Position numbers and translations under genes: made by a program
Shown here: positions 4,571 through 24,551 of the stretch, piece after piece
How the letters are laid out: every line of letters begins with the position of its first letter
How positions within the stretch are numbered: position 1 is the stretch's first letter
The notes under the pieces: model-generated
What the model was told of the DNA's origin: nothing
Database searches by the model: none
The model's input: only the letters and a program-made list of their open reading frames with translations
From: a virus
IMG/VR virus record: IMGVR_UViG_3300020157_000001
Span: 27,206-91,205 of that record
Strand: one strand, 5' to 3'
Length of the DNA: 64,000 nt

Positions 4571-4576
4571 ATGGAA

Positions 4577-6700
4577 CTACCCCTTAGCGTCGTACCAAGA
4601 CCCAGCATACCCTGCCGAAACTTTGATAGGTATACCCCTAATGATACTCCCATCTCCCATAGCATGTATGATCTTGGGTTCCCATTCTCCTAGTTCTTCG
4701 GTAGGAACTGAGAGAACCAACTCGTCATGTACCTGAATGAGAAGCTTTACATTCGTGTTACGGATGAGCTTGTCCACGTTAACGATTGCCTGCTTGCACA
4801 TCTCGGCAGCGGTGCCTTGGACAATAGCGTTCACGGCTTGGCGCTCGGCTGTCATGCGGAGAATACGTATCTTCTCATCGTTTCCAATGAGGTTTAGGTC
4901 AGGAAGTCTACGACGACGACCCCCCATAGTCTCAACATATCCAAGACGACGACCACGAACTACCACTTGTAGTTTCCAGTCTGTCATACCTTGATACGCC
5001 CTGTTATATTCCTTAATGACATCCTTAGCCCTGTCAAGGGTGATGACTCCGTTGGTGCTTTCCACCAAGCGCTTAGCTCCTCCACCGAATCCCATGAGGA
5101 AGTTGGGGGTCTTGCCGTACACCTGACGCTCTTCGGAGGTGACATCATCTACGTGCTTGCCAAGGATAAGGGAAGCTGTGCCAGAGTGAACGTCGATACC
5201 GCTCAAGAAGATCTTGGTGAGGTTCTTGTCCCCTGAGAACATAGCGAGGATGCGTAGCTCCACCTGATCGTAGTCAGCATCGAACAGCGAGTTGCCCGGT
5301 TCTGCTGTGAACAAGGAGCGTACCTTACCATCACGGGGGATGTTCTGTAGGTTGGGGCCGCTGCTGCTGAGACGGCCTGTAGCCGTGCGGTGCAAGTGGA
5401 ACTGCGGGTGCAGTCTGCCTGAGTGGAGCATAGGGAGAAGACCTTCAACATATGTTGACTTCATCTTCGTGAGTTCCTGCCAGCCAAGGAGGTGGTCAAC
5501 TACCTCATGCTTACCACGGAAGGACTCTAGTACGTCAGAGTCTACCGATGGGAGGGGGGCAGACTTAGCTCCTCCAGAGGTGAACTTCGTAGCCTTGAGG
5601 CCAAGTCCTCCCTCTTTCTTACCGGAGAATAGAAGCTGTCGCTTGTGCATGTTGGAGTCAGGGTTGAACCCCAGAGGAACGTGAGGGGACATCAGCAGGA
5701 GGAGGTTGTTCATCTCCAGAGTGAGAGACTTACCAAGCTTAGCCATTTCCCGCTTGTTCACCATCACACCAGCCTGCTCCATACGGGCAATAGGTCCGGT
5801 AACGGATATGTCCCCATACATGGCCTTAGTGAGGGAGGGGTGCTTTGTGATCTTACGGACGAGCTGCGAGTAGAGCATCCATGTCCACCGTGCGTCAAGA
5901 TGCACGTAGTAACAAGCCTTGCTGAACGATATGTTCTCCATATCAGCACCCAGCTTGCCGTCACGATAGTACGGCGACCATTGCTCAAACTGGTTGCCGA
6001 TCACCTTCTCCAGCGAGTAGCTCATCAGGTTCTCGCTGGTGATATGCATAAGGATCATGGTGTCGATGAGGCTGCCCTCAGGCATCCCACCGATGCTCTT
6101 AGCAATCGACCTAGCGTCGAACTTGATATTGTGCCCGACCTTAGGTATAGACGGGTCTAAGAACAGGGGGGCTAATGCACCCCATACTTCTGAGGGAGAG
6201 AGTTGCGTTGGGGGAGGGAGGAAGGTTCCCGGTACGAAGTACTTAGCCTTGGCTCCTGACTCCTTACCCGATGCAAGGACGGCGCGCATACCTAGAGGGG
6301 GCACAGTAGTACCATCGCCCCGCTCAGGAGGAGTAAGCATCTCACCGTGGGGATGAGTCATAGGGATAGCCCACGACTGCCCACGCACAGAGATACCAAT
6401 CCAAGTGACCTCGTTACGCAGAGGGTCTAGCGCCAGACTCTTCGTCCATGCCGCTTCCACTACCTGCTTGCTGCGAGCTATAACTGAGAGGTTGGTTGCC
6501 TTTAGCTCAGCCTGCTTGACGAGCCATTCCCGCTCAACCTCTTGGATGACTTCGGGATGGTTGTAGATGTTGCCGCGTGTCTCTACGTCAAAACAGAAGA
6601 TACCTTCCGTAGTGATAGCGTCTACAACCTCTTGTAATGCTTCGGAGGTCGATACGTAGGGGGGCGTTGCCCCCCTACGTACCTCAGTTGGGTTGACCAT
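4577..6700 (-). CDS. polA: Family A DNA polymerase with 3'-5' exonuclease
   Basis: ExoI FDVET, ExoII GHNIKFD, ExoIII YVHLD, TATGRLSSSGPNLQNIP, motif A DYDQVELR, motif C QVHDEL; start uncertain (6700 or 6736). Confidence 0.95.
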   Translation of the reverse strand: MVNPTEVRRGATPPYVSTSEALQEVVDAITTEGIFCFDVETRGNIYNHPEVIQEVEREWLVKQAELKATNLSVIARSKQVVEAAWTKSLALDPLRNEVTWIGISVRGQSWAIPMTHPHGEMLTPPERGDGTTVPPLGMRAVLASGKESGAKAKYFVPGTFLPPPTQLSPSEVWGALAPLFLDPSIPKVGHNIKFDARSIAKSIGGMPEGSLIDTMILMHITSENLMSYSLEKVIGNQFEQWSPYYRDGKLGADMENISFSKACYYVHLDARWTWMLYSQLVRKITKHPSLTKAMYGDISVTGPIARMEQAGVMVNKREMAKLGKSLTLEMNNLLLLMSPHVPLGFNPDSNMHKRQLLFSGKKEGGLGLKATKFTSGGAKSAPLPSVDSDVLESFRGKHEVVDHLLGWQELTKMKSTYVEGLLPMLHSGRLHPQFHLHRTATGRLSSSGPNLQNIPRDGKVRSLFTAEPGNSLFDADYDQVELRILAMFSGDKNLTKIFLSGIDVHSGTASLILGKHVDDVTSEERQVYGKTPNFLMGFGGGAKRLVESTNGVITLDRAKDVIKEYNRAYQGMTDWKLQVVVRGRRLGYVETMGGRRRRLPDLNLIGNDEKIRILRMTAERQAVNAIVQGTAAEMCKQAIVNVDKLIRNTNVKLLIQVHDELVLSVPTEELGEWEPKIIHAMGDGSIIRGIPIKVSAGYAGSWYDAKG

Positions 6701-6707
6701 CTTGTGG

Positions 6708-7412
6708 TCAGTCCGCTCCAATATCCTCTGCGGCAATAGCCTGCAAAGTCTTACGTGGAGTGATCTGAATGATGGAGTTGCTGTACACAGTCTTGCTCAA
6801 CTCGCTGAGTTGTGTAGCTGTGAGTGGGGCGTAGTCAGGCCAGTCTTCCTCAACGTCACGCTCCTTGACCAACTGAATGGCTGTGGCAGCGGAACCCTTT
6901 TTACCAGTCAAGGTGCAAGCCCAATAGTTCTTGCTCAGAGGACCTTGGGTTGGATTGTTGTGGAAGTTCTTCAACTGATCCAGCACTCGGGGGCCAACGT
7001 CGAAGCTACGACGGACAGCACCGCCGCCCTTCTCCATGAGGAGGACGTTGAATGAGAAGCGTGCGCTTGGGCGGTCGCCAGCATCGCACAGAGGGCAACC
7101 GCTAGGGTCAACCGATGCGAGGCACGTGAACGACTTCTGTCCCGAACGCTCAATCCAGTGCTGGTGGTAGCTGGCGTATGGATCATCCTCATCGAACTTG
7201 ATAAGGACAGGGACGGATGAGAGCTTCAAACGCTGGGCGAATGGGCTGTCAGCCGCAATGACTGAATCGGCTGCTCCCCAGCCACGCTTGATAACCCGAT
7301 TCGCTGTAGCAGCGACCTCAGGGCTAACTTGCTCACGCTCTGGAGCGGAGGGAGGAGTGTCGATCTCCTCGGTGGATACTGCACTATCGTCGGTGTCGTC
7401 GTAACGGCCCAT
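6708..7412 (-). CDS. Single-stranded DNA-binding protein, gp32-like
   Basis: YHQHW..SFTC..GCPLC zinc motif; position beside polymerase. Confidence 0.75.
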   Translation of the reverse strand: MGRYDDTDDSAVSTEEIDTPPSAPEREQVSPEVAATANRVIKRGWGAADSVIAADSPFAQRLKLSSVPVLIKFDEDDPYASYHQHWIERSGQKSFTCLASVDPSGCPLCDAGDRPSARFSFNVLLMEKGGGAVRRSFDVGPRVLDQLKNFHNNPTQGPLSKNYWACTLTGKKGSAATAIQLVKERDVEEDWPDYAPLTATQLSELSKTVYSNSIIQITPRKTLQAIAAEDIGAD

Positions 7413-7436
7413 GGTCTTCTCGTTTCTTGGAGTGTC

Positions 7437-7886
7437 TTAGGTAGTTGGGTATTGCTTGAGGTGCTGAATGAAACCAGTCCAGTCAGCGGTATTCGGTACG
7501 TCCAGTCGGAACTGATCGAACGCTTCGATCAAGTATACCACTTGATCTTGGGTGTACAATCGTCGCCCTTTGACTGGCTTACCTCCTAGGGTAGCACCTT
7601 CGGGGGGGCGTGTCCTAATCTTAGGACGAGGCAACCACCCTTTGAGTTCCCATGATCGGATGGTCACAGGCTTTCTACCAAGGACTTTAGATACCGCCCC
7701 GATGGTGTAGCACTGTTGGGCTACTCCACCAACAGAGTACAGCTTAGAGGGAAGTTCGTTGAGAAACACAACCTTATCGTTCTTCGGAGGAAGTTCCCCA
7801 CCCTTACGATTACGTGGGGTAGTACCACCGGGATAGTCTTTCGTATCCGTATCAGGGTTGTTGAACATGTCTAGTGGATCTCGCAC
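7437..7886 (-). CDS. MerR-like helix-turn-helix DNA-binding protein
   Basis: YTIGAVSKVLGRKPVTIRSWELKGWLP...RRLYTQDQV; start uncertain. Confidence 0.8.
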   Translation of the reverse strand: MRDPLDMFNNPDTDTKDYPGGTTPRNRKGGELPPKNDKVVFLNELPSKLYSVGGVAQQCYTIGAVSKVLGRKPVTIRSWELKGWLPRPKIRTRPPEGATLGGKPVKGRRLYTQDQVVYLIEAFDQFRLDVPNTADWTGFIQHLKQYPTT

Positions 7887-7888
7887 GG

Positions 7889-8296
7889 TCAGTACTCGTA
7901 CTTCTTCTGAGGTGTGGGGGCGGCGAACGCCCACGTTACCTTCTCGGTATTGAATGAGCGCACGACGCTCTCTACCTCTGGGTGGAGGAATGCGTAGGCT
8001 GCAATCTTGTCAGGGTCAACGAACACCTGAGTTACCGTCGTGGTAACGTCATCAGTGATACCCATTTCCTTGGCCCATGCCTCTGCTGCATCGGCGTTCC
8101 AGAACTTGGATACACGACGCTCACGCTTGAGCAGGTATTCGCCCCCGGCCAGCCAGTAATGCCCTGACGAGTCCTGCTCTCCTGCTTTTTCCACTTGTGC
8201 CATGAGCATGTTCTTGAGTTCATCTTTACGCTCCGTGGCTGCTTTAACGTGTGCGGTCTGCTTCAGGTACTCTTCTGCGAGTCGGTCGATGTTCAT
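7889..8296 (-). CDS. Hypothetical coiled-coil protein (possibly Gam/host-nuclease-inhibitor-like)
   Basis: Helical N-terminus; ATG 8296 lies 7 nt below a -10 box. Confidence 0.6.
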   Translation of the reverse strand: MNIDRLAEEYLKQTAHVKAATERKDELKNMLMAQVEKAGEQDSSGHYWLAGGEYLLKRERRVSKFWNADAAEAWAKEMGITDDVTTTVTQVFVDPDKIAAYAFLHPEVESVVRSFNTEKVTWAFAAPTPQKKYEY

Positions 8297-8303
8297 GGAC
8301 GAG

Positions 8304-8332
8304 ACCATACTCCCGCTATCGAAGAAAGTCAA
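8304..8332 (-). promoter_or_regulatory. SigA-type promoter, probably leaderless
   Basis: TTGACT-17 nt-TATGGT, then 7 nt to ATG. Confidence 0.7.
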
Positions 8333-8335
8333 TCA

Positions 8336-9877
8336 CTAAACAGTAGATTCTTTTAAGAATGTTGTGAGGGTGCCTACGTCGATGCTCATAGCACCTTGCT
8401 CGTCTTGGTGCTTACCGTCCACGAAGGCTTCGTTGACCTGCCGCTTGTGCATGAGCATCTCGTACTGGCGCTCTTCGATGCTGCCCTGCATGACAAAGCT
8501 GACAATGTTAACGTGCGGAAAGGTAGATGATAGCCGTATGATACGCGCCTCTCGCTGTTCTAACTTACCGCTTGACCACGGGAGGTCGTAGCTGATAAGG
8601 AAGTTAGCCATAGGGAGGTCAACGCCATACCCTCCAGCGTCAGACGATAGGAAGAGACGACACTTGGGGTCGGTAGCGAACTTCTGCTTTGCCTGATCTC
8701 TAGCCTCTGCTGGCATACCTCCCATGAATAGGACGCTGCCAGTCATGTGGGAGGTGGCCTCTTGGATGAGGCGTAGGTTCTTCTTGAAGAAGGAGAAGAG
8801 GACTACCTTGTTCTTGGGGTCTTCCGACAGTACCTCTTCGATGAATTCTACGACTGCCTCTAGCTTGGGAGACTTAGCCACCCCACTCATCCAGCCCTCA
8901 TCCACGATGTCAGATGCGTAAGCGCTGCCCATCGTCGTGGCAGGGTTCTTGTAGTCCGTGGCTGACCCTGTGACTAGAGCGGGGTTGTCGCAGAGCATAC
9001 GCAAGACAGTTAGGCGAGCCATGATCTGACCCTGCGCTTCGTTGTCATCCCCACCGTTGTAGTGGGCAAACAGGCTAAATCCCCCACCGGCCTTACGCAT
9101 CACTGCTGAAAGCTGCGCTAGTAGGTCATTTGATATACGTCGATATGCCTCGGCACCCTTGCTGTCAAACGAAACTGGTACAACTGTGTGAATGATTTTG
9201 GGGAGCTGATCCGCAATGTCTTCTCTTGTCTTACGCACCATACAGTCTTTCATAGCGGTATACATAACGGGTAAGTTGACGTACTTTAGCGCCTTGCCCC
9301 AGTGATCTCTACGAATAAACGTGCTATCAAATAGCTGGAAAGACCCTAATACATCCTTGTCTACGAACTCCATGATGGAGAACAGTTCTTCGGGGCGGTT
9401 CTCAATGGGCTGTCCCGTCAGGGCGTAGCGGTAGTGAATCGTCTTCCCAATCTTCTTGAGCAGCTTGGAGCGCTTGCTCGTACGGTTCTTAATCATGGTG
9501 GCTTCGTCAATAATCATCGCCCCGAAGGTACCCATGAACTTCTGATCGTTGACGAGAGTCTCTGGGTTGACGATGACATAGCGAGAGCCGATGCTCATAC
9601 GCCATGCCTTCTCACGCTGTGCTGGGCTACCGTCGATGACCGTTGCCTTAGCGTCTGTGAACTTAGCGATCTCTCGTAGCCACTGGAACTTGAGGCTAGC
9701 GGGGACGACAACTAGGCAGCGGTCTACCTCGCCTTGATCGTGCAGTTCCTCTAACGCAGAAAGGGTGATGACAGTTTTGCCACCACCCATCACTACGCCA
9801 AGGAGCATCTGACCTCTATCTACCATGCGATCTTTAGCGTCCTGCTGGTATGGCCAGAGGGTTCCGTTAAAGGTCAT
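8336..9877 (-). CDS. SNF2-family helicase
   Basis: MGGGKT, IIDEA, LTGQPIENRPEELFS, AGGYGVDL, QREARIIR. Confidence 0.9.
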   Translation of the reverse strand: MTFNGTLWPYQQDAKDRMVDRGQMLLGVVMGGGKTVITLSALEELHDQGEVDRCLVVVPASLKFQWLREIAKFTDAKATVIDGSPAQREKAWRMSIGSRYVIVNPETLVNDQKFMGTFGAMIIDEATMIKNRTSKRSKLLKKIGKTIHYRYALTGQPIENRPEELFSIMEFVDKDVLGSFQLFDSTFIRRDHWGKALKYVNLPVMYTAMKDCMVRKTREDIADQLPKIIHTVVPVSFDSKGAEAYRRISNDLLAQLSAVMRKAGGGFSLFAHYNGGDDNEAQGQIMARLTVLRMLCDNPALVTGSATDYKNPATTMGSAYASDIVDEGWMSGVAKSPKLEAVVEFIEEVLSEDPKNKVVLFSFFKKNLRLIQEATSHMTGSVLFMGGMPAEARDQAKQKFATDPKCRLFLSSDAGGYGVDLPMANFLISYDLPWSSGKLEQREARIIRLSSTFPHVNIVSFVMQGSIEERQYEMLMHKRQVNEAFVDGKHQDEQGAMSIDVGTLTTFLKESTV

Positions 9878-10809
9878 GGGCAGAGCTTCGTGGTTTTGAA
9901 CCCTGTGATCTGGGCATCCTGCATATCGCCAACATCCTTATCGGTAGAACCCTTGTAATCCCAGTACGACACACCCTTGCGAAAGGGTAGGCGCAGCTTA
10001 GCGAGACGACGGGTCTCCATAAGGCCAGCCTTATCTACGTATGGATTATCAAGTGCCATGATAAGTCTATCAAACCTTGACAACAGCAATGTAATTTGAT
10101 CTGATGACACATTGGCTCCAAAAGATGCAACAGGGGAGATATCGGTAGTATCCATAAGCCCTGCAAACCTTACGACATCTAAGGGGGACTCCATGAGCAG
10201 GGCGGTATGGCCTGTTGCTTGGGCGATACCGAACAATGTGCGACCCTTGTGTACACCTGTGGGCACGTTGACGAACCTGCCTACCCGCTTGCCTTGCCAC
10301 CCCATAAGCTCACCGAGGGGGGACACGATAGGAATGATCGTCATGTTCTCTTCGGTGCCGCTCTTGTCAATGGCTACCCCGCCCCACCGGACACCAAACT
10401 TGCGTACGGTATCTCCGTCGAGTTGACGTAGGTCAATGATCGACTGAGGGAGGGGGGAGAACTGGGCGTACTTGATCCAGTCAACAGCTACTGCTGGTTC
10501 CTCCCACTCGTCAGAACGGGTAAGCCTGTCAATACCATTGCGTATGAGCAAGGTATTGATAGCCATGATGCTGTCAGGGTTACCAGTGATCTGGCTGACG
10601 AGGACGGGGAGGTTGCCTCGCGCCCCACAGGTGAAGCAATGCCACAGACCTGAGTCGGTGTTCATGTACCAAGAGTAGCGAGACGACTCTCGCCCCTTGG
10701 TCAGATGGTGGACGGGGCAGCGACCATTGATCTCGTCCCCTGACACACGCTTTACGTCCACACCTAGATCCATGATGATGGTGGCTAGGTCTTGTGCCCG
10801 TTCAGTCAT
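9874..10809 (-). CDS. DNA primase (zinc finger + TOPRIM)
   Basis: CPVH...WHCFTCGARG; ESPLDV, LDN..D..G, DKDVGD. Confidence 0.85.
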   Translation of the reverse strand: MTERAQDLATIIMDLGVDVKRVSGDEINGRCPVHHLTKGRESSRYSWYMNTDSGLWHCFTCGARGNLPVLVSQITGNPDSIMAINTLLIRNGIDRLTRSDEWEEPAVAVDWIKYAQFSPLPQSIIDLRQLDGDTVRKFGVRWGGVAIDKSGTEENMTIIPIVSPLGELMGWQGKRVGRFVNVPTGVHKGRTLFGIAQATGHTALLMESPLDVVRFAGLMDTTDISPVASFGANVSSDQITLLLSRFDRLIMALDNPYVDKAGLMETRRLAKLRLPFRKGVSYWDYKGSTDKDVGDMQDAQITGFKTTKLCP

Positions 10810-12058
10810 ACGTCTCGTCCATGCCCTCTACGTCGTCCTCATGCACCTCAGAGAACTCCATAGTCTGCCAGTCCCATTTGATATGCACTTCTCCACGGGG
10901 GGCAGTACGGGCTTCGACAACACGGATGATGGACTGGTTGTCGATGTCAGGGTTGCGCTCCACACCAAGTACCAAGTCTGCGTCCTGACCCATAGCGGAT
11001 GAGTAGCCAATGGCATCGGCGGTAATCGCACGCGTACGCTTGTTGTTCAATTTCCAACCAAGAGCCTGCGTGGTACCAATGATAGGGATATCAAACCTCT
11101 GGCATAGACGCTTCATCCCTCGGGATACATTAGTGAGCGCTTGCGGGCTACCCTTTGGCTCACCGTTCTGATCGTCCATCAGATACATACCGTCAACCAC
11201 CACCATGTCAGGCTTCATCTCCTGAATCTTTCCGGCAATAGCATCGACGGTGGTGAGGCTGGACGAGTCTTCGGAGAACATGAACGGATGCATGTTCTTA
11301 CGAGCGACCATCATGTCGTGGATACGAGTCATCTCTGCGTTGCTCATATCGCCACTAAGGATTCTGTCGTAGGGGACTTGAGCGTTGAGAGCGTCCAGAC
11401 GAGAGGCTTGCTCCTCGCTACTCATCTCAAACGAAATGAGTAGAGGCTTCTTGCCGTGACGGTGACATGCCTCTGCCATGATGAGAACGATCAAGCTCTT
11501 ACCACGTTTCTGCTCTCCTGCTACCACGATGAACTGCTGGGGGCGCAGACCCTGAGTGATACGGTCTAGACCGTCGAACCCTGTAGGGATGCCTCGCAGC
11601 GTGTTCGGGTTAGCGCGCATGAACTCGTAGCGTGCAAAGCGATCTTCCCACGTAGAGATTACGTCGATGTCCCGTAGGCGGCTGGCCTCAACGGATGCCT
11701 TCTGCAATCCTTTGGAGAGGATAGACATAGCGCCGTCAACGTCATCAGCCTCAAGGCTGTTCATGGCGTTAGCTGTAGCCTCAAGAACTTCCCGCTGCTT
11801 GTACGCAGTAAGGATCTCCTCAAAGAGTCCGCTGAATGTTTCGTCGGATGAGTCAAGAACCTCTACGTCACCGAACTGAGAATTGAATGCACGCACAGAC
11901 GGCACCGCTGCGTGCTTGCTGTTGTAGTCAAGTATCCATAGGTACTTCGGCTCCCAGATAGGAGAGAAGTGGAACGGCTTGATGCCAGCCTTTACCGACT
12001 CAGTGAGCGACTGTAGCTCAATGATCTTGGAGATAGCTAGGTGCTCATGTGAGGCCAT
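10802..12058 (-). CDS. dnaB: DnaB-like replicative helicase
   Basis: GIPTGFDGLD, Walker A GEQKRGKS, SFEMS, VVVDGMYLM, QDADLVLG. Confidence 0.92.
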   Translation of the reverse strand: MASHEHLAISKIIELQSLTESVKAGIKPFHFSPIWEPKYLWILDYNSKHAAVPSVRAFNSQFGDVEVLDSSDETFSGLFEEILTAYKQREVLEATANAMNSLEADDVDGAMSILSKGLQKASVEASRLRDIDVISTWEDRFARYEFMRANPNTLRGIPTGFDGLDRITQGLRPQQFIVVAGEQKRGKSLIVLIMAEACHRHGKKPLLISFEMSSEEQASRLDALNAQVPYDRILSGDMSNAEMTRIHDMMVARKNMHPFMFSEDSSSLTTVDAIAGKIQEMKPDMVVVDGMYLMDDQNGEPKGSPQALTNVSRGMKRLCQRFDIPIIGTTQALGWKLNNKRTRAITADAIGYSSAMGQDADLVLGVERNPDIDNQSIIRVVEARTAPRGEVHIKWDWQTMEFSEVHEDDVEGMDETYD

Positions 12059-12513
12059 TAGACCCCCCAAGTTGAGCCGGGGGACATGACTGTACAGCGG
12101 GGGCCGAAGTAGGCAGCGTCGCTCTCAAACGGGGTGTACAGCGTATGCACATCCCTGTTGTACCTAAAGTCGTCCATGAGTCCCTCTGGGTCTTCGTATG
12201 AGTACACGGTTACGGATATTCCCTTACGTGCCAGCCAGTGCTCAATAGGCTCAATGTAGTCGGAGTCGTAGTACGTGTACACATCGACGTTTATCTTGAG
12301 TTGATTGACCATGTGACTCAACGACTTGATCGGCATCTCAGCGGTCTTCCATGACCGTACCACATCGTCTATCGTTATCCCCTGTTGGGGTACTGGCTTC
12401 TGCCAGAACTTCCTCTTCGCAGCGGGGGCATCCTCTTTAGGTATGAGGATCAGACCCTCAAACATGACAGCCACAGAGCTGGTCAGAAACGATCCAATGT
12501 CATTACCTTCCAC
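12058..12513 (-). CDS. Hypothetical protein
   Basis: Coupled to dnaB via TAATG. Confidence 0.7.
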   Translation of the reverse strand: MEGNDIGSFLTSSVAVMFEGLILIPKEDAPAAKRKFWQKPVPQQGITIDDVVRSWKTAEMPIKSLSHMVNQLKINVDVYTYYDSDYIEPIEHWLARKGISVTVYSYEDPEGLMDDFRYNRDVHTLYTPFESDAAYFGPRCTVMSPGSTWGV

Positions 12514-13114
12514 GGAGAGTCACCATATCCATATCCTTAGTAGGACCTTCCATCCTACTGGTATAGATATGGCGTATGTCTGCCGCTGAGTGCTCAGAGG
12601 TAATAATCGTCGTAAGCATGTGAGCGTGACGGTGACGGATCAAGCTGCCGATCTCATGCTTGGCAAAGTCGGTGAGGCGCTCCTGCCCTAGACCGTCGAT
12701 GACGAGGATGTCCCATGTTCCCTTGATGTACTTCAAGAGGTGCTGAGATGAGTACATCTCGGGCAGACCCTCGCTGGAGTCAAAGGAATCTTTCACCATG
12801 GCAACGTAGTCATCGGTGTCGATGAACCGCCCACTCACCTTGTGGTTCTCCATAAGGGCGGTGAGCACGTTGACTGCCTGAAAGGTCTTGCCAGTCAATG
12901 CGTAGCCCTGAATGAGCAGGCTCTTGCCGGGGGTGTACGAGGCTACCCACTTGTCAACGGCAGCGATGGATGGGTCTTTCCACGTAGGACTGACCGCACG
13001 TGTAGCAATGGCATGGCGAGCGGGAACCTTGGCGTGATAGACACGCTCTTCTAGTGAGCGGTTACGCCACCAGTTACCGCTCTTCCACTCTCTTGGTGTC
13101 TCAAATGATGTCAC
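12503..13114 (-). CDS. DnaC/IstB-like helicase loader ATPase
   Basis: LLIQGYALTGKT, ILVIDGLGQE, TIITS; upstream of dnaB. Confidence 0.75.
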   Translation of the reverse strand: MTSFETPREWKSGNWWRNRSLEERVYHAKVPARHAIATRAVSPTWKDPSIAAVDKWVASYTPGKSLLIQGYALTGKTFQAVNVLTALMENHKVSGRFIDTDDYVAMVKDSFDSSEGLPEMYSSQHLLKYIKGTWDILVIDGLGQERLTDFAKHEIGSLIRHRHAHMLTTIITSEHSAADIRHIYTSRMEGPTKDMDMVTLRGR

Positions 13115-13626
13115 AGGTACTCCACGATGATCTCAAACTTAGCCGTGGGTCCGTCCCGTTCACTGACGATACACCTATGGCGTATCTCTTCATCGTGTTC
13201 GGATGACCAAGGCGGCTGGTCGCTGGGGGGAAGACTATCACTCCGCACGTAGTCATTGGCAATGAATGCCAAGATACGTGGTCGGTACTCAATGGGGATT
13301 GGGTTAGCTGCGAGAAGTTTGTCTTGCACTTCCTTTTTGAGGAAGGTAAGGACGGGGCGCGCAACAGTACCCGCAGTGGTTTCGTAGAAGCTATCAATAG
13401 CCTGTTTGATATGCTCCTCTGATATGCCCCGTTTAATCAGTCGGGACATACCGATGAACAAGATCGTCCTGTCATCTTCGGAGAAGACTTGGTGCATCTT
13501 GGTCTTGGGGTGGGAGGTGAAGTACTCTCTGAGTACCGCTGCCCTACCTCCAATGGGTTTACTCTTCTTTGCTTTTGGTGCTACAGAAGGGGGGCTGACA
13601 TCTTCTGATCCTGCTCCATAGATCAT
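13111..13626 (-). CDS. Hypothetical protein, first gene of replication block (possible initiator)
   Basis: GGAAGG RBS; ATGA overlap with DnaC-like gene. Confidence 0.65.
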   Translation of the reverse strand: MIYGAGSEDVSPPSVAPKAKKSKPIGGRAAVLREYFTSHPKTKMHQVFSEDDRTILFIGMSRLIKRGISEEHIKQAIDSFYETTAGTVARPVLTFLKKEVQDKLLAANPIPIEYRPRILAFIANDYVRSDSLPPSDQPPWSSEHDEEIRHRCIVSERDGPTAKFEIIVEYL

Positions 13627-13645
13627 ATGTGCCTTCCATGAGAAA

Positions 13646-13745
13646 TTGAGGGGCGGGGGGAAAGGAGGGGAATCCTACTCAGTCACGTGCCGATGCTGGT
13701 ACGGATACCCTCTTCACCCTTGCGGAAGAAGCCCCCGCCCCTCAA
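13646..13745 (-). ncRNA. Candidate structured cis-regulatory RNA or sRNA
   Basis: Perfect 14-bp terminal inverted repeat enclosing a GCAA-capped hairpin and a second long hairpin, filling the intergenic gap. Confidence 0.5.
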
Positions 13746-13748
13746 GAC

Positions 13749-14771
13749 TTATCCGAGGATGATACCCTTTACTGACCGAGACACAACATCCTCAAGCGCT
13801 TTTAGTGCGAGTGAACGGTGACGGCCTGCGGGAACATTGGAAATGATGTGCTCACCCAACTGGAAGGCGGCGCTGGTGAGGTCGTTGATTGTCTCTGTCT
13901 CTCTACGGCTTGGCTCGCGAGCGTGATCGAAGAGGCTGGCACGAAGTTCCTCATAGCCAACGACTACTGGAGTAGTGGGAGCTGGCAAGGTCAGGTCGCT
14001 ATCACCAAGGGTGACGGGCATGGGCTTACCAATGTGCTGTGAGGGAAGAGGACCTGCCGTAGGCTTGTTCGCTGGATAAGGCTTAGCTGCCTTGGGAGTA
14101 ACGTGTACGGGGAGATCTTCCTTTGGGGGAAGAGCCTGCGCTGGCAAGGTAGTACCAAGGATGACCTTGATGTAGTTGGCCTTGCCTGACACCCCATCGG
14201 GGAGGTTGCCCGTCTCCATAGCGAGTCGCTTGAGCGATGCGACTGGCATGATGTTCAGTTCGTCCTCTGTGAACGCAACGGGGGCATCATCGGTCGGGTC
14301 ATCTTCTACGTACGATGTCGCAGCAGGTGTGACCTCTTCCTTTTCGGGAACAAGGGACAGAGAGATGGGGGCGAGTCCGTTGGACAACTCCAGTACAAGG
14401 GCGCTCTCTGGCACTGTGTCGAACACGAAGTTGACAAGCTCTTCTGCCTCGTTGTCATCCCAGAGGATGAGCACCTTACCCTTGTTCGCCATAGCGCCAA
14501 GGATCTGCTTCTCCACACCGTTCACCTCAAGGGTGCTGCCGGATTCTGCGGATGTGAATGCCTTGGGGGGCTTGTTGTCAGGGTTGTGGTACATGAGGAA
14601 CTGCACGTCGTTGTCAAGAATGTAGTCGTAGGCAGCAGCCAGACCATCGGTTGGCTTGCCGTACCACGGTAGTGCAACTACATCGTCCTCTTCAAGAAGA
14701 TCACGGAGACCTTCTTGGATTACTGTCTTGGGGGCATTACCTGTCCCCAGCAAAGCGTGGATACGTGACAT
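13749..14771 (-). CDS. Multidomain protein: alpha/beta N-domain, Rho-N/HeH-like motif, C-terminal Acb2/Tad1-like hairpin
   Basis: ELNIMPVASLKRLA..KANYIKVIL; C-terminal VPAGRHRSLALKALEDVV. Confidence 0.55.
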   Translation of the reverse strand: MSRIHALLGTGNAPKTVIQEGLRDLLEEDDVVALPWYGKPTDGLAAAYDYILDNDVQFLMYHNPDNKPPKAFTSAESGSTLEVNGVEKQILGAMANKGKVLILWDDNEAEELVNFVFDTVPESALVLELSNGLAPISLSLVPEKEEVTPAATSYVEDDPTDDAPVAFTEDELNIMPVASLKRLAMETGNLPDGVSGKANYIKVILGTTLPAQALPPKEDLPVHVTPKAAKPYPANKPTAGPLPSQHIGKPMPVTLGDSDLTLPAPTTPVVVGYEELRASLFDHAREPSRRETETINDLTSAAFQLGEHIISNVPAGRHRSLALKALEDVVSRSVKGIILG

Positions 14772-14803
14772 CGGGTCTCCCTGTCGTAGGTCTAAGGGTC
14801 GTC

Positions 14804-14832
14804 ACTGTACACCCCCACCAACGTCAATGCAA
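14804..14832 (-). promoter_or_regulatory. SigA-type promoter of the replication operon
   Basis: TTGCAT-17 nt-TACAGT. Confidence 0.65.
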
Positions 14833-14854
14833 GTAAGACTTGGTGTGACCCTTG

Positions 14855-15430
14855 TCACATACCTCGAACAGCGTTGTACGCAACGATTGAGTATTTAGCT
14901 TCCTCGGTGATCGGAAGGGTCGAAGTAAACAAAGTCTGCATTGCACCAACTGTCTTCTGATAGTCCTCGGAATAGATTGATACCGAGTTGTTAGCAGAGC
15001 TTACCCATCGGTAGTCACTGACCGCTGAGAGTATGCCGCCTATGGGCGTTGACCCGTCAAAGTACGTGCCAAGGAAGTTCACCTCTGCAAGGAGGTTTGC
15101 CGCTGTAAACGACCCTACCGACAGGTCAACCATGAACTCAACGAGGCAGTTGGTGTAGGTGGATGCGTTGGTAAAGGCAGTTACTGGGATCTCTACTACA
15201 GATACACCATTGATGATCTTGGAGCCGCTGCTCATCCCGACGATGCGGTTGGCTGAGTCGATGAGCCGCCCCCACTTAATCGCTGTGGTAGTACCTACGG
15301 AGAAGTAAGCACGGTCACCAAGTAACACGGGGATCACACTGTAGGCGGGGGAGAGGCTACCTATAGTAATGACCGCCCCCGTAGAGGGAGTAGTAGCAGT
15401 CCAAGTCTGACCAGAGAGAGTAACAGTCAT
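14855..15430 (-). CDS. Minor tail/baseplate protein
   Basis: YFDGS..DYRW..NNSVSIY motif typical of actinophage minor tail proteins; starts 1 nt after the giant gene's stop. Confidence 0.6.
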   Translation of the reverse strand: MTVTLSGQTWTATTPSTGAVITIGSLSPAYSVIPVLLGDRAYFSVGTTTAIKWGRLIDSANRIVGMSSGSKIINGVSVVEIPVTAFTNASTYTNCLVEFMVDLSVGSFTAANLLAEVNFLGTYFDGSTPIGGILSAVSDYRWVSSANNSVSIYSEDYQKTVGAMQTLFTSTLPITEEAKYSIVAYNAVRGM

Positions 15431-22547: not shown

Positions 22548-24005
22548 TTAAACAGTTCCTCCAGATGTGGAGAACGTATAGCTACCCTTTTTAGGTAGCT
22601 TTAGAACGTCTATCAATATGTAGCTTTGAACTGCTGTACCGGGGTTTGCGTCAAACTTGGTAATGATCGCATAGTCCACACCAGTAACATTGTTTATTAT
22701 TCGGTACACCTGACCGAGGTGAATACGCTGACCAAAGAATACGTTGTCAAACGAGAACAATTCGTCTAGGGCGGTAGACACGGCAGTCTGGACATCGGCC
22801 CGAACAAACCTGTCCTGAACGACCAAGGTGATACCAAGGTCGATGTATGTCCAAGCAACAGCGGAAGCACTGAGCACACTCACGCCAAGAAGGGCGAGTG
22901 GTTGGAGAGTGTTGATAACTGCCAAGGAAGTTGCTGTAGAAACAGTTTCCGCTGACGCTGTAGTGGTGAGATAGTCTGACCTGTAGATCTGAGGATAGAT
23001 GGTAACGGAAGAGTTAGAGCTTGCCCCACCCTGCACGAATGAGAGCGACGCTTTAGCTACGCCCGGTACTTGCGATGCAAGAGCGATGAAGTCAGCGCGG
23101 GTTACAGCCCTGTTGTTGGTACCAGATATGGCTGGGATAGACCGCTTCATTGATGTGATTGATTCGTTGTCTGTGCCTCCTGTAAAGGAAGTACTAGACG
23201 TAATGGAGATACCAGTGGGGGTAGTCCCCGAGAACGCAGTGATGCAGTTAGCAGGGATGTTACCATCTGCGCCTGATGACTCTGTGTAAGTAGCTTTGAT
23301 CTTGGCTCCGGTAGGGGGGACGAAACCGTTTAGGTAAGTTCCAAAAATAACCTGAGTAGAACCGTCAGCAGCAGAGTAAATAGCGAATACCCGGTCTCCG
23401 GTGGGGGCATCAATGATCCGAGTAACACGTCGGTACTGGGTAGCAGTCAGTCCGTCCTCCAGTACATACACATAGATCGAATACGGATCAACATTGGTCG
23501 TGGTCAGGGAGTATCGCTGCCCAACGGTGCCGTCAGAACTTGAGGCAAGAACCTCTTCTACGTGGCGGGTACCCTCAGATACTGTTACCGCTGCGTTGTT
23601 TCCTGCGTTGATAGTTACGTTGCTAGTGGTGTAACACTGGTAACTCTTGCTGTTGTACTGAGCAATAAGGGGTGTGTACTGCGGCACTGAAATAGACGCT
23701 GCGGTTGAGTTCGTCAGGGTCAAGGTAGATACTGCACTGCTGCGCCCCCGAGGGGTGTAGTCCATAAGGTTAGCTATAGCAAGAAGACTTTCTCGCTGTG
23801 TAGCTGTGGTTATGGAAGTCTCCCCTGCTGCCCGATCAATGTAGTAGTGCATGATATCAGCAGCGTGCGCCCACAGGTCAACAAGCAACATACCGAAGTC
23901 AGAAGGATCTCGCTCTGTCCATTCAGGCATAACTTCTGTAGCGCGAGCCAACATATCCGCACGGATAGTATCGAAATCTCTTGAAGTGTAGTTAAATGCT
24001 GCCAT
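22548..24005 (-). CDS. Baseplate wedge subunit (T4 gp6/P2 gpJ-like)
   Basis: NYTSRDFDTIR..PEWT..SDFG, GGTDNES, RAVTRADF..VPGVAKA. Confidence 0.88.
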   Translation of the reverse strand: MAAFNYTSRDFDTIRADMLARATEVMPEWTERDPSDFGMLLVDLWAHAADIMHYYIDRAAGETSITTATQRESLLAIANLMDYTPRGRSSAVSTLTLTNSTAASISVPQYTPLIAQYNSKSYQCYTTSNVTINAGNNAAVTVSEGTRHVEEVLASSSDGTVGQRYSLTTTNVDPYSIYVYVLEDGLTATQYRRVTRIIDAPTGDRVFAIYSAADGSTQVIFGTYLNGFVPPTGAKIKATYTESSGADGNIPANCITAFSGTTPTGISITSSTSFTGGTDNESITSMKRSIPAISGTNNRAVTRADFIALASQVPGVAKASLSFVQGGASSNSSVTIYPQIYRSDYLTTTASAETVSTATSLAVINTLQPLALLGVSVLSASAVAWTYIDLGITLVVQDRFVRADVQTAVSTALDELFSFDNVFFGQRIHLGQVYRIINNVTGVDYAIITKFDANPGTAVQSYILIDVLKLPKKGSYTFSTSGGTV

Positions 24006-24007
24006 AA

Positions 24008-24397: not shown

Positions 24398-24410
24398 TAG
24401 TTAGATCCTG

Positions 24411-24551
24411 TCAGGGGGCTTTGAGGGATGCGTTCTCTTCTTCAAGTTCTTCTATACGAAGAATAAGTAGAGCACGCTCTATGATGTGGGGCGCATCGCG
24501 CTGGATGATCGCTAACACTTTGTTTCCGTCGATCTCTTTATTGTCTGACAT
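24411..24551 (-). CDS. Small coiled-coil protein
   Basis: AGAAAG RBS; LRIEELEEENASLK. Confidence 0.6.
   Translation of the reverse strand: MSDNKEIDGNKVLAIIQRDAPHIIERALLILRIEELEEENASLKAP

What the first reader, a model, noticed from the sequence alone, without database searches (positions are those of the whole stretch)
13749..14771. Candidate anti-defence fusion: Acb2/Tad1-like sponge domain joined to two other domains
Seen: last about 60 aa (FDH..INDL..AFQLGEHIISNVPAGRHRSLALKALEDVVSRSVKGII) resemble the P.gRe.SLA..kLEea..wa..ai helical hairpin; a mid Rho-N/HeH-like motif; an N-terminal alpha/beta domain weakly SLOG-like. First gene after an early-type promoter. Known: Tad1 and Acb2 are small stand-alone proteins sequestering Thoeris/CBASS signals. 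Inference: a multidomain anti-signalling or nucleotide-sensing protein; loss of the usual MW motif could mean altered ligand or inactivity.
Basis: inference. Interest (0 to 1): 0.7.

Follow-up and report, generated by a model that had tools for sequence, protein, structure and literature searches.

The report
SLOG-like protein with Acb2-type tail
A conserved gene at the head of this phage's replication genes joins a nucleotide-binding-type (SLOG-like) domain and a DNA-tether motif to a complete copy of the small "sponge" unit that other phages use to soak up bacterial alarm nucleotides; this architecture is undescribed, and its function is still open.

Summary
The 340-aa ORF (13749-14771, minus strand) is real, and all three domain calls survive testing.

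- **C-terminus:** the last 72 aa are an Acb2/Tad1-type unit. PF24729 is sub-threshold in the window, but 18 of 21 relatives match it. The closest cultured relatives are 80-86-aa stand-alone Acb2-like proteins of Microbacterium phages. The best PDB superposition is Acb2_43, and self-association is predicted.
- **Middle:** a probable HeH/SAP motif.
- **N-terminus:** the fold is LOG/DprA/YpsA-like (SLOG-like), with no sequence-level membership.

- The gene is a core, syntenic gene between the tail-fibre and replication genes.
- A sister clade of the family carries a different small tail instead of the hairpin.
- The window clade has replaced several Acb2/Tad1 ligand or hexamer residues, keeping only the key arginine.

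My best reading is that the hairpin is the assembly core of a nucleic-acid-tethered oligomer of SLOG-like heads. A true immune-signal sponge remains a serious rival.

The scan has flagged other Acb2/Tad1 fusions and SLOG neighbours on other DNA, but not this architecture. I rate it a new variant of a known kind, of moderate interest.

The parts
13749..14771 (-). Whole CDS, 340 aa plus stop; ATG at 14769-14771
   Evidence: ORF list. Full-length homologues are 40-99% identical and share the same start.
14358..14771 (-). N-terminal alpha/beta domain, residues 1-138, SLOG-like Rossmannoid fold, very acidic (pI 4.3)
   Evidence: AF2 pLDDT >90. VIA Z 8-9.7 to LOG, YvdD, ShosA, YpsA, DprA and MCP. 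ESM Atlas neighbours carry YAcAr/DprA at score 0.89, a lead only. 211 representative clusters in 1.84 billion proteins; apart from one spurious repeat-protein match, all carry the domain at the N-terminus. G9, G11, W104, G132 and P135 are conserved in 83-97% of 149 representatives; W36 in 64% and N131 in 75%.
14277..14357 (-). Acidic disordered linker, residues 139-165, with the conserved motif E-x-DPTDD-x-P
   Evidence: pLDDT <50 at 140-165. E156, P159 and D161 are nearly invariant. Net charge -7.
14142..14276 (-). HeH (SAP/Rho-N-like) helix-extended loop-helix motif, residues 166-210
   Evidence: Helices 169-173, 177-187 and 197-205. Weak Rho_N/SAP/MANF-SAP matches. Detected in 137 of the 168 proteins then on file, nearly all of them family members. 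Most conserved module, mean pairwise identity 0.61.
13968..14141 (-). Pro-rich disordered linker, residues 211-268, variable in length and sequence
   Evidence: pLDDT <50 at 217-268. Mean pairwise identity 0.30. Indels in alignment A1.
13752..13967 (-). C-terminal Acb2/Tad1-type unit, residues 269-340: short helix 273-281, then a hairpin of helices 289-312 and 317-339
   Evidence: PF24729 at 285-337. Microbacterium phage stand-alone homologues align over the whole unit. Domain model pLDDT 86.7. 9PTQ, 7UQ2 and 8H2J at ranks 1, 3 and 14. Self-association model score 0.73 against best control 0.00.
14804..14832 (-). Weak promoter-like element TTGCAT - 17 nt - TACAGT upstream of the gene
   Evidence: Read from the sequence. 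Below the scan threshold. Hexamers identical in L001 and L027 while the spacer differs in L001.
14777..14781 (-). Shine-Dalgarno GGGAG, 5 nt before the ATG
   Evidence: Sequence; conserved in L001 and L027.

Best explanation
The gene encodes a modular, self-assembling protein that belongs to the phage's replication-gene block.

**Shown**
- An N-terminal domain with a SLOG-like (LOG/DprA/YpsA-type) Rossmannoid fold.
- A probable HeH/SAP motif set between two disordered linkers.
- A complete Acb2/Tad1-family unit at the C-terminus: a short helix plus a two-helix hairpin, the same extent as the 80-86-aa stand-alone Acb2-like proteins of Microbacterium phages.

**Inferred mechanism**
- The hairpins zip together (at least into dimers, possibly a trimer of dimers as in Acb2 and Tad1) and form the core of an oligomer.
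- The HeH motif tethers that oligomer to nucleic acid.
- The SLOG-like heads hang on flexible linkers. Their conserved residues sit at the C-terminal ends of the strands, the usual ligand crevice, so each head probably binds a nucleoside- or nucleotide-like ligand or a partner protein.

On this reading the Acb2/Tad1 hairpin is first of all the assembly module. A sister clade of the family does the same job with a beta-beta-alpha tail. The protein would act with the replication genes as a ligand-binding, DNA-associated accessory or regulatory factor. Residual sponge activity of the hairpin core is possible but is not the core function: it keeps R317, the equivalent of the cyclic-trinucleotide and hexamer arginine R67 of Acb2 and R88 of Tad1.
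For: **Architecture and folds**
- AF2 models.
- SLOG-family chains fill the top structural ranks.
- PF24729 matches in the family and in the stand-alone relatives.

**Self-association of residues 265-340**
- Four copies were modelled: score 0.73 against best control 0.00.
- The mark was reached by 20 of 30 proteins solved as pairs of one chain and by 1 of 23 solved as single chains.
- Runs agree in at least 66% of their contacts, and the partner's pLDDT is at least 68.
- The pass may come from memory of the solved Acb2/Tad1 complexes.

**Core-gene status and fixed position**
- In 25 IMG/VR loci the gene always follows the tail-fibre gene and its 203-aa neighbour. Wherever the contig extends downstream, it is followed by the DnaC-like loader, a 151-aa gene, DnaB, primase and SNF2 helicase. 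The 171-aa downstream gene is detectable only in the hairpin-type loci.
- All 14 loci found through DnaB alone that have enough upstream sequence carry it.
- A remote structural homologue, Streptomyces phage BRock gp120 (Foldseek E 5.6e-5), also lies upstream of that phage's DnaC-like loader and DnaB. It has a basic Ala/Lys/Pro-rich tract where the window has the HeH motif.

**Tail classes**
- Of 143 representative family members, 39 have hairpin-type tails, 64 have beta-beta-alpha tails and 40 are unclassified.
- The N-domain tree needs only 2 changes of tail type, against a shuffled mean of 31 and 0 of 500 shuffles as low.
- Both clades keep the N-domain, and the HeH-like motif is found in most of the family.

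**Conservation and residues**
- HeH is the most conserved module (0.61). The hairpin (0.54) is as conserved as the N-domain (0.52).
- The window clade has replaced residues that are ligand contacts elsewhere: T299 where Acb2 has K26 (R in 19 of 24 relatives) and K324 where Acb2 has T74 and Tad1 T95 (T in 18 of 24). Among hexamer-interface residues, S331 stands at Tad1 M102 and R332 at W103. R317, R319, S320, E327 and K335 are kept.
Against: - No direct evidence links the protein to replication. Adjacency and co-conservation are the only ties.
- The N-domain is strongly acidic (pI 4.3) and has no conserved basic residue, unlike DNA-binding DprA.
- The C-terminal unit is as close to stand-alone Acb2-like genes as to in-family hairpins. 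One of those stand-alone genes is annotated as a cyclic-oligonucleotide-sequestering protein. Stand-alone units have no obvious role other than ligand binding.
- Conserved basic residues (R317, R319, K335, plus R299 and R332 in relatives) lie at the predicted inter-protomer interface, which is the hallmark used to recognise sponges.
- Known sponge domains are often fused to each other, and viral SLOG domains have been proposed to act on ADP-ribose-derived immune signals.
- The HeH assignment rests on sub-threshold matches.
Confidence: 0.45

Rival explanations
1. This is a genuine counter-defence protein. The Acb2-type core sequesters a cyclic oligonucleotide or an ADP-ribose-derived signal in inter-protomer pockets, and/or the SLOG-like heads act as decoy sensors (like the SLOG domain of ThsA) that bind Thoeris-type signals. 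One polypeptide would then neutralise one or several signalling defences at the onset of replication.
For: - PF24729 homology.
- Best PDB superposition is Acb2_43, which binds 3'cADPR (paper).
- The nearest cultured relatives are stand-alone Acb2-like proteins.
- R317 sits at the position of the cA3-binding arginine of Acb2 (R67) and Tad1 (R88). T is kept at the T74/T95 position in 18 of 24 relatives, and R or K at the K26 position in 21 of 24.
- Basic residues lie at the predicted interface.
- Fusion of sponge domains is a known theme, for example Tad2-Acb4 and Sequestin.
- Iyer et al. 2022 predict that viral SLOG domains counter ADP-ribose-derived signals.
- Acb2 in JBD67 also sits inside a conserved module, between head genes, so a fixed position does not exclude anti-defence.
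Against: - The window clade lacks Y11, K26 and T74 equivalents and the MW pair, and its Pfam score is sub-threshold.
- The sister clade keeps the N-domain and HeH without any hairpin.
- The gene is present in every related phage examined, whereas anti-defence genes are usually patchy.
- The HeH motif, the most conserved module, has no role in a soluble sponge.
- The N-domain has no conserved basic residues for phosphates and no sequence-level SLOG membership.
Confidence: 0.3
2. The SLOG-like head is an enzyme: a LOG/DNPH1-type N-glycosidase or a related hydrolase. It would act on a nucleotide, either an immune signal (cADPR-type) or a nucleotide-pool component relevant to this phage's DNA metabolism. 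The hairpin would provide the oligomeric state and the HeH motif the localisation.
For: - The top structural matches are LOG phosphoribohydrolases with AMP bound (5ZBL Z 9.7, 5ZBK Z 9.6). DNPH1 appears among the Foldseek hits.
- Conserved acidic and aromatic residues (W36, D49, D53, W104-D105, N131), most of them at or beside the strand ends, could hold a ribose or a base.
- Iyer et al. propose cleavage of 1'-ribosyl-adenine bonds by viral SLOG domains.
Against: - The LOG signature PGGxGTxxE was not seen by eye in the N-domain alignment, and no LOG/DprA-type family appears in any Pfam scan.
- The domain is shorter than LOG: about 125 aligned residues of 180, rmsd ~3 A.
- E128 is invariant only in the close subfamily.
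- Z of 8-9.7 is only a little above the usual background of 7-8 stated by the tool.
Confidence: 0.12
3. The resemblances are chance or compositional: a generic helical hairpin and a generic Rossmann-like fold with no relation to Acb2/Tad1 or SLOG.
For: - The window's own PF24729 score is below the cut-off.
- Foldseek against the PDB with the C-terminal model gives nothing below E 3.6.
- VIA Z values of 6-7 are tied with unrelated hairpins.
- hhalign against single sequences finds nothing.
Against: - 18 of 21 relatives pass PF24729, down to E 5e-10.
- In-family canonical hairpins score E 1e-12 to 1e-15.
- tblastn gives E 4e-7 to proteins that are clear PF24729 members.
- Three Acb2 structures rank within the top 14 of 48,161 chains.
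- The first 18 entries of the second-look search are all SLOG proteins.
Confidence: 0.04

Closest known systems
Stand-alone Acb2-like proteins of Microbacterium phages (Lyell gp34, 83 aa; Wolfstar gp30, 86 aa, annotated 'cyclic oligonucleotide sequestering protein'; vB_MoxS-ISF9 ISF9_033, 80 aa)
   Same: They align with the whole C-terminal unit (short helix plus hairpin) at 34-37% identity across the full alignment, and 44% in the best local match. They share the second-helix motif, including M-R where canonical members have M-W, and are clear PF24729 members.
   Different: They are small, independent genes in an early accessory region next to NrdH and metallophosphatase genes. The window's unit is the tail of a 340-aa protein and has T299, K324 and S331 where they have Q, T or K, and M. 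Their function is annotation only and has not been tested.
Acb2 (PaMx33, JBD67, T4 Vs.4; PDB 8H2J, 7UQ2) and Acb2_43 (PDB 9PTQ)
   Same: Same Pfam family and the same two long antiparallel helices. 9PTQ superposes at rmsd 1.8 A over 59 aa. R317 corresponds to R67, the arginine essential for cA3 binding. Self-association is predicted.
   Different: Acb2 proteins are 69-110-aa stand-alone hexamers. The window lacks the cGAMP residues Y11 and K26 and has K at T74. It has no beta strands like those that form the 3'cADPR pocket of Acb2_43. The hexamer was not modelled and ligand binding was not tested.
Tad1 (CmTad1 PDB 8KBB, CbTad1 7UAV/7UAW)
   Same: The second helix of in-family canonical hairpins aligns with CmTad1's C-R-E-N-A-M-A-I-T-K-L-Q-E-C-L-M-W stretch. 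It is the only PDB hit, at E 1. The arginine equivalent to R88 is kept. Tad1 is a precedent for a hairpin carrying another ligand-binding domain N-terminal to it.
   Different: Tad1's partner domain is a directly attached beta sheet that forms the gcADPR pocket together with the hairpin. Here the partner is a SLOG-like domain about 130 residues away, across disordered linkers. The hexamer-interface residues M102 and W103 are S-R in the window.
SLOG superfamily (LOG, YvdD, PpnN, DprA, ShosA, YpsA, Moco carrier protein; viral YAcAr/DprA-like proteins)
   Same: Three-layer alpha/beta fold with a Gly-rich loop after strand 1. Best structural matches have Z 8-9.7 over ~125 residues. Protein-language-model neighbours are small viral YAcAr/DprA-like proteins. 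Phage DprA-like and YspA-like proteins appear among the BFVD hits.
   Different: No sequence-level match to any SLOG Pfam family. The domain is shorter, ending right after the last strand's E-L-x-N-G-L-x-P motif. It is acidic, with no LOG or DprA signature.
Fused sponges (Tad2-Acb4 of Pasteurella phage Pm86; Sequestin PF21825 fusions)
   Same: One polypeptide combines a known sponge unit with another small domain, and fusion is used as a guide to new anti-signalling domains.
   Different: Those fusions join two short sponge domains directly. Here the partner is a 138-aa SLOG-like domain plus a HeH motif with long linkers, in a core replication-module gene.
Streptomyces phage BRock gp120 (374 aa, hypothetical protein)
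   Same: Foldseek E 5.6e-5 to the whole model. By eye its N-domain has the same motif order (I-T-G-S-G-N ... V-V-L-Y-D-E-S ... L-N-L-S-E-G-L). It has the same position and orientation upstream of the DnaC-like loader, DnaB, primase and helicase.
   Different: No detectable sequence similarity by BLAST or hhalign. A basic Ala/Lys/Pro-rich tract stands where the window has HeH, and no PF24729-type hairpin was recognised.

Membership tests
Acb2/Tad1 hairpin family (Pfam PF24729) | Match to the family HMM above the curated cut-off (27 bits) | tested here: inconclusive
   The window scores 22.3 bits, E 1.5e-4, covering model positions 3-56 of 58, and 25.7 bits in the six-frame search. 18 of 21 full-length relatives match, best E 5e-10. 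In-family canonical hairpins score 47.8-57.8 bits. Membership is secure for the protein family and sub-threshold for this copy.
Acb2/Tad1 hairpin family (Pfam PF24729) | Two long antiparallel helices that superpose on solved Acb2/Tad1 protomers | tested here: met
   Domain model pLDDT 86.7. 9PTQ_A is rank 1 of 48,161 (Z 7.1, rmsd 1.8 A, 59 aa), 7UQ2_A rank 3 (Z 6.7, 2.5 A, 62 aa) and 8H2J_A rank 14 (Z 6.1). Z values are tied with unrelated hairpins, so this counts only together with the sequence evidence.
Acb2/Tad1 hairpin family (Pfam PF24729) | Homo-oligomer (hexamer, a trimer of dimers) with pockets between protomers | tested here: inconclusive
   Four copies of residues 265-340 score 0.73 against best control 0.00. 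The mark was reached by 20 of 30 proteins solved as pairs and by 1 of 23 solved as single chains. Contacts agree at 66% or more and pLDDT is 68 or more. The interface is a symmetric hairpin-hairpin pair. Six copies could not be submitted, so the hexamer is untested. The pass may reflect memory of solved Acb2/Tad1 complexes.
Acb2 (anti-CBASS 2) | Cyclic-dinucleotide pocket residues Y11 and K26 | tested here: not met
   Mapping uses the Pfam coordinates and the pattern (S/T)-x-(D/E)-x-(I/V)-(D/E)-x-(I/M)-x-x-(L/V)-(K/R). The Y11 position is A284 (N or T in relatives). The K26 position is T299 in the window clade, but R in 19 and K in 2 of 24 relatives. Residue roles are from PMC10312549.
Acb2 / Tad1 | Cyclic-trinucleotide pocket pair R67/T74 (Acb2), equivalent to R88/T95 (CmTad1) | tested here: inconclusive
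   R317 is invariant in 24 of 24. The position seven residues later is K324 in the window clade and T in 18 of 24 relatives.
Tad1 (Thoeris anti-defence 1) | N-terminal antiparallel beta sheet packed on the hairpin, forming the gcADPR pocket; hexamer interface Q98/E99/M102/W103/K106 | tested here: not met
   No beta sheet adjoins the hairpin: a short helix and a disordered linker precede it. The interface positions read E327, D328, S331, R332 and K335, so the M-W pair is lost.
Acb2 / Tad1 sponges | Small stand-alone protein (about 70-130 aa) | tested here: not met
   The unit is the C-terminal 72 aa of a 340-aa protein. No stand-alone close relative was found among shorter proteins, only a fragment of the same gene.
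Acb2 / Tad1 sponges | High-affinity binding of an immune nucleotide signal and rescue of phage on CBASS or Thoeris hosts | not testable with these tools
   Needs ITC or native-gel binding assays and plaque assays.
SLOG superfamily | Three-layer alpha/beta Rossmannoid fold close to solved SLOG members | tested here: met
   The first 18 entries of the second-look search are LOG, ShosA, DprA and MCP (Z 7.7-9.7, rmsd ~3 A, 120-146 aligned). The wide search gives the same result plus YpsA at Z 8.9. Foldseek probability is 0.98-1.0 but E is 5e-3 to 5e-2. The Z values lie only modestly above the tool's stated background of 7-8.
SLOG superfamily | Gly-rich or polar nucleotide-contact loop after strand 1 | tested here: met
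   G9 (97%) and G11 (91%) directly follow strand 4-9.
SLOG superfamily | Sequence-profile membership in a SLOG family (LOG/Lysine_decarbox, DprA PF02481, YAcAr PF10686, YpsA) or signature motifs such as PGGxGTxxE | tested here: not met
   No SLOG family at E <= 1 for 21 plus 20 family members. PF10686 and PF02481 find nothing in the genome at E <= 10. The N-domain profile hits no SLOG chain in the PDB. The only sequence-derived hint is an ESM Atlas neighbour score of 0.89, a lead.
HeH / SAP / Rho-N motif | Significant match to SAP (PF02037) or Rho_N (PF07498), and a helix-extended loop-helix structure | tested here: inconclusive
   Rho_N E 0.015 (P0079) and 0.13. SAP E 0.1-0.19. MANF SAP domain E 0.52. 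The AF2 model shows helices 177-187 and 197-205 with pLDDT ~80. Nucleic-acid binding was not tested.

The most novel reading that the evidence does not exclude
A new class of multi-domain counter-defence protein. An Acb2-type oligomeric core displays several SLOG-like heads that act as viral decoys of the ThsA-type SLOG sensor and capture ADP-ribose-derived (Thoeris-type) signals. The core may still hold cyclic trinucleotides at its conserved arginine. The HeH motif would keep the complex on the replicating phage DNA. This would make the ~211-cluster N-domain family a previously unrecognised sponge or sensor family and give experimental footing to the predicted anti-signalling role of viral SLOG domains.
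Probability: 0.2. Interest if true: 0.8.

Novelty: new variant of a known kind. Interest (0 to 1): 0.55.

Why it matters
Acb2 and Tad1 have been studied as small stand-alone sponges, and the large homologue surveys set multi-domain forms aside. This case shows an Acb2/Tad1-type unit inherited stably for a long time as the tail of a larger, conserved replication-module protein.

Two outcomes are possible, and both are informative.
- The hairpin may be a general self-assembly module. PF24729 hits could then not be read as 'sponge' by default, which matters for annotation. SEA-PHAGES already labels a relative 'cyclic oligonucleotide sequestering protein'.
- The SLOG-like/HeH partner may be a new player in the conflict over nucleotide signals. 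That would be the first physical link between the two.

Either way, the N-domain family is uncharacterised, matches no Pfam family and is restricted to phages. It has about 211 clusters at 50% identity and two ancient tail types. Simple binding, oligomerisation and plaque assays can address it.

Tried and rejected
**Searches that found nothing or little**
- tblastn of the full protein and megablast of 11 kb against 50,697 phage genomes found no match. tblastn of the N-domain alone found only a chance hit.
- A search for shorter relatives of residues 268-340 found only a fragment of the same gene.
- phmmer or profile searches of the PDB found no Acb2/Tad1 or SLOG hit with the full profile, the C-terminal 73 aa, P0010 or the N-domain profile. 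P0040 gave CmTad1 as the only hit, but at E 1.
- The metagenome scan returned only 11 loci, mostly already known.
- PF10686 and PF02481 gave nothing in the genome.

**Comparisons that were uninformative**
- hhalign of the family profile against single sequences (JBD67 Acb2, BRock gp120) carried too little information.
- MAFFT placed JBD67 Acb2's first helix differently from Pfam. I used the Pfam coordinates and the residue pattern instead.
- Foldseek against the PDB with the C-terminal model gave nothing below E 3.6. T4 Vs.4 had the highest probability, 0.63.

**Ideas rejected**
- 'GYEEL equals the Acb2 GYRDL tyrosine' is rejected. By Pfam coordinates the Tyr position falls at A284, and Y273 is not conserved in the family.
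- 'The C-terminal tails are freely swapped' is rejected by the N-domain tree: 2 changes only.

**Other dead ends**
- The promoter scan found no site upstream.
- A literature search for YAcAr returned caiman papers. A search for DUF2493 gave nothing useful, and the 2015 SLOG paper is not held.
- P0134 (1117 aa), a hit of the N-domain profile, is a repeat-rich surface protein and the hit is spurious.
Full report
**1. What is there**

The window is the right-hand 64 kb of a 91,205-bp virus record judged 97% complete. All its genes run on the minus strand.

The ORF at 13749-14771 (340 aa) has a GGGAG ribosome-binding site. It lies between two gene blocks:
- upstream, a 2370-aa tail-fibre-like gene and a 203-aa gene;
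- downstream, a replication block made of a 171-aa gene, a DnaC-like loader, a 151-aa gene, DnaB, a DnaG-type primase, an SNF2 helicase, PolA and RecA.

No cultured phage is close. The best helicase match is Streptomyces phage BRock at 40% identity.

**2. Family and architecture**

The protein search found 20 relatives. Eighteen of the 21 aligned sequences, the window's included, share the full architecture at 40-99% identity. The AF2 model shows:
- a confident alpha/beta domain at residues 1-138 (pLDDT >90);
- a disordered acidic linker with a conserved DPTDD motif;
- three short helices at 169-205;
- a disordered Pro-rich linker at 217-268;
- a short helix (273-281) followed by a helical hairpin (289-312 and 317-339).

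**3. The C-terminal unit is an Acb2/Tad1-family member**

*Sequence evidence*
- PF24729 matches residues 285-337 over nearly the whole model, but below the cut-off (22.3 against 27 bits).
- 18 of 21 relatives match it, down to E 5e-10.
- More distant family members with the canonical S-R-E-R-S-L-A-I-T-K-L-E-E-A-V-M-W motif score 48-58 bits.
- tblastn of the last 76 aa against all phage genomes finds 80-86-aa stand-alone proteins of Microbacterium phages: Lyell gp34 at E 4e-7, Wolfstar gp30 (annotated 'cyclic oligonucleotide sequestering protein') and ISF9_033.
- These stand-alone proteins are clear PF24729 members (E ~1e-13). They align with the whole unit, including the short helix before the hairpin.
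- They also carry M-R where canonical members have M-W. The 'lost MW motif' is therefore a subfamily trait, and only the M-to-S change is specific to the window clade.

*Structure evidence*
- A domain-only model (pLDDT 86.7) was compared with 48,161 PDB representatives.

| Entry | Protein | Rank | Z | rmsd, aligned |
|---|---|---|---|---|
| 9PTQ | Acb2_43, a 3'cADPR sponge | 1 | 7.1 | 1.8 A, 59 aa |
| 7UQ2 | T4 Vs.4 | 3 | 6.7 | 2.5 A, 62 aa |
| 8H2J | PaMx33 Acb2 | 14 | 6.1 | 4.2 A, 66 aa |

- The Z values are tied with unrelated hairpins, and Foldseek alone is not significant. Structure therefore only corroborates the sequence evidence.
- BFVD lists the ISF9 'Acb2/Tad1 hairpin domain-containing protein' at 40% identity.

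*Self-association*
- A four-copy model of residues 265-340 passes the self-association test: score 0.73 against best control 0.00.
- The mark was reached by 20 of 30 proteins solved as pairs of one chain and by 1 of 23 solved as single chains.
- Contact agreement is at least 66% and pLDDT at least 68.
- The pass may come from memory of solved Acb2/Tad1 complexes. The hexamer could not be tested.

**4. Functional residues**

Residue roles come from PMC10312549, 10.1101/2023.11.15.567273 and 10.1101/2025.08.24.671296. Positions were mapped with the Pfam coordinates of JBD67 Acb2 and the window and with column counts over 24 fused hairpins.

| Role in Acb2 / Tad1 | Known residue | Window | Relatives (24 fused hairpins) |
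|---|---|---|---|
| cGAMP stacking | Acb2 Y11 | A284 | never aromatic |
| cGAMP contact | Acb2 K26 | T299 | R in 19, K in 2 |
| cA3 phosphate binding and hexamer | Acb2 R67 / CmTad1 R88 | R317 | invariant |
| cA3 phosphate binding | Acb2 T74 / CmTad1 T95 | K324 | T in 18 |
| hexamer interface | CmTad1 M102, W103 | S331, R332 | M in 14; R in 17, W in 7 |

R319, S320, E327 and K335 are nearly invariant. The window clade has therefore diverged at several positions that matter in the solved sponges, while the scaffold and the key arginine are kept. That could mean a new specificity or a relaxed ligand function.

**5. The N-domain**

*What supports a SLOG-like fold*
- Foldseek's best rows are LOG, Moco carrier protein, DprA, ShosA and DNPH1, at probability 0.98-1.0 but E 5e-3 to 5e-2.
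- The Foldseek-independent search puts LOG (Z 9.6), YvdD (9.4), ShosA (8.9), YpsA (8.9), DprA (8.8) and MCP (8.1) first.
- The second look lists 18 SLOG entries before the first non-SLOG fold.
- A protein-language-model look-up points to small viral proteins carrying YAcAr and DprA Pfam families, at score 0.89, a lead only.

*What argues against full membership*
- No SLOG Pfam family matches any of 41 family members or the genome.
- The N-domain profile hits no SLOG structure by sequence.

*Other properties*
- Across 149 representatives the conserved residues are G9, G11, D24, W36, Y48, D49, D53, W104, D105, N131, G132 and P135.
- G9, G11, W36, W104-D105 and N131-G132 sit at the C-terminal ends of strands 1, 2, 4 and 5, the usual ligand crevice of Rossmannoid folds. 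That placement is inference.
- The domain is acidic (pI 4.3) and has no conserved basic residue. This argues against DprA-like DNA binding and is unusual for a phosphate-binding sponge.

My conclusion is a SLOG-like fold, with membership not shown by sequence.

**6. The wider family and its evolution**

- A profile of the N-domain found 211 representative clusters among 1.84 billion proteins. Those listed are 103-347 aa long and carry the domain at the N-terminus, apart from one spurious repeat protein.
- A HeH-like segment follows in 137 of the 168 proteins then on file, nearly all of them family members.
- The C-terminal tails of 143 representatives fall into three groups: one linked cluster of 39 hairpin-type tails, 64 beta-beta-alpha tails, and 40 unclassified. 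The hairpin cluster contains the window type, the canonical MW type, a 'LLWYHYG' type and an 'ARLWMLK' type.
- On a FastTree of the N-domain the two tail types need only 2 changes (shuffled mean 31; 0 of 500 shuffles as low). A 98%-supported clade of 54 rows holds 37 hairpin tails.
- The hairpin is thus an old, vertically inherited part of one half of the family. The other half does without it.
- Within the window's subfamily, mean pairwise identity is 0.54 for the hairpin, 0.52 for the N-domain and 0.61 for the HeH motif.

**7. Context**

- In 25 IMG/VR loci the gene always follows the tail-fibre gene and its 203-aa neighbour. Wherever the contig extends downstream, the replication genes follow.
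- All 14 loci found through DnaB alone that have enough upstream sequence contain it about 2.7 kb upstream.
- BRock gp120 (374 aa) is a Foldseek match to the whole model (E 5.6e-5). It lies upstream of BRock's DnaC-like loader and DnaB, and has a basic Ala/Lys/Pro-rich tract in place of the HeH motif.
- This is the pattern of a core gene tied to the replication block, and both middle regions look like nucleic-acid tethers.
A weak TTGCAT-17-TACAGT has conserved hexamers and a variable spacer in a relative.

**8. Interpretation**

The structural claims are solid: a SLOG-like head, a HeH motif and a self-associating Acb2/Tad1 unit. Function is inferred.

*Best reading (0.45).* The hairpin is the assembly core of a nucleic-acid-tethered oligomer of ligand-binding-type heads that works with the replication genes. 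Three observations lead me there:
- the function shared by both clades cannot depend on Acb2-type pockets;
- the most conserved module is the tether;
- the gene is core.

*Sponge or decoy reading (0.30).* It remains serious for these reasons:
- stand-alone relatives of the unit exist;
- basic residues lie at the predicted interface;
- sponge domains are known to fuse (10.1101/2025.07.12.664507);
- viral SLOG domains have been predicted to act on ADP-ribose-derived signals, including in fusions to nucleic-acid-binding domains (PMC9503650).

*Other readings.* An enzymatic head (0.12) and chance resemblance (0.04) complete the list.

**9. Novelty**

None of the papers I searched describes this architecture. 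The large Acb2/Tad1 survey removed proteins carrying two named extra domains (PF21825 or PDB 6E3C) and those over 500 aa.

Other windows of this scan have noted Acb2/Tad1 units fused to other domains and SLOG genes next to such units. None noted this SLOG-like/HeH/hairpin protein. I did not test those notes.

I rate the finding a new variant of a known kind, interest 0.55.

Noticed in passing
window 13627-13748 (minus strand): The 122-nt gap between this gene and the next folds into a strong structure closed by a 14-bp G/C-rich stem (GAGGGGCGGGGG... / ...CCCCCGCCCCUC). MFE is -57.6 kcal/mol, z -3.0 against shuffles. It is already noted by the scan as e1-6016544; I only folded it.
   Followed up: partly
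L042:11505-12629 (Streptomyces phage BRock gp120, NC_048650.1 57504-58628): This 374-aa hypothetical protein is a whole-length Foldseek match (E 5.6e-5) and a positional counterpart upstream of the DnaC-like loader and DnaB. It has a basic Ala/Lys/Pro-rich tract instead of the HeH motif. It is a cultivable handle on the family.
   Followed up: partly
proteins P0044, P0061-P0168 (family members); loci L015-L025: About 45% of the N-domain family ends in a ~30-aa beta-beta-alpha tail instead of a hairpin. Typical patterns are V-V-V-x-Y-S-D-G... or C-M-V-T-V-V-M-P-N-G-T-V-I-S...L-L-G-L. The tail has no Pfam match and may be an alternative assembly module.
   Followed up: partly
window 14277-14357 (residues 139-165); also P0053: A nearly invariant acidic motif E-x-D-P-T-D-D-x-P sits in a disordered linker. 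In P0053 the same motif occurs in the second linker instead. It may be a short linear motif for a partner protein.
   Followed up: no
window 13111-13626 (minus strand); L020:6702-7621: The 171-aa downstream gene is conserved only over its middle (residues 31-132) in hairpin-type loci. In beta-tail loci a 171-aa HTH-like protein is inserted before a diverged counterpart. The replication-block head therefore varies with the tail type.
   Followed up: partly
alignment A2 members (L002-L037 loci): Four shorter family members give weak hits to Pfam DUF7440 (best E 0.0027). The region matched was not examined.
   Followed up: no
window 14853-14866 (minus strand, overlapping the stop codon of the 203-aa gene): A small inverted repeat, GTGAC-AAGG-GTCAC, overlaps the stop codon of the upstream gene. 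It is conserved, with one change, in L001. It could be a weak terminator or an operator in front of the promoter-like element.
   Followed up: no
window 1-12070 and 22548-26576: Gene content places the phage far from cultured ones: DnaB, DnaG-type primase, SNF2 helicase, PolA with exonuclease, RecA, a MerR-like protein, baseplate J and an S74 chaperone-domain fibre. The best match is Streptomyces phage BRock at 40% for the helicase.
   Followed up: partly
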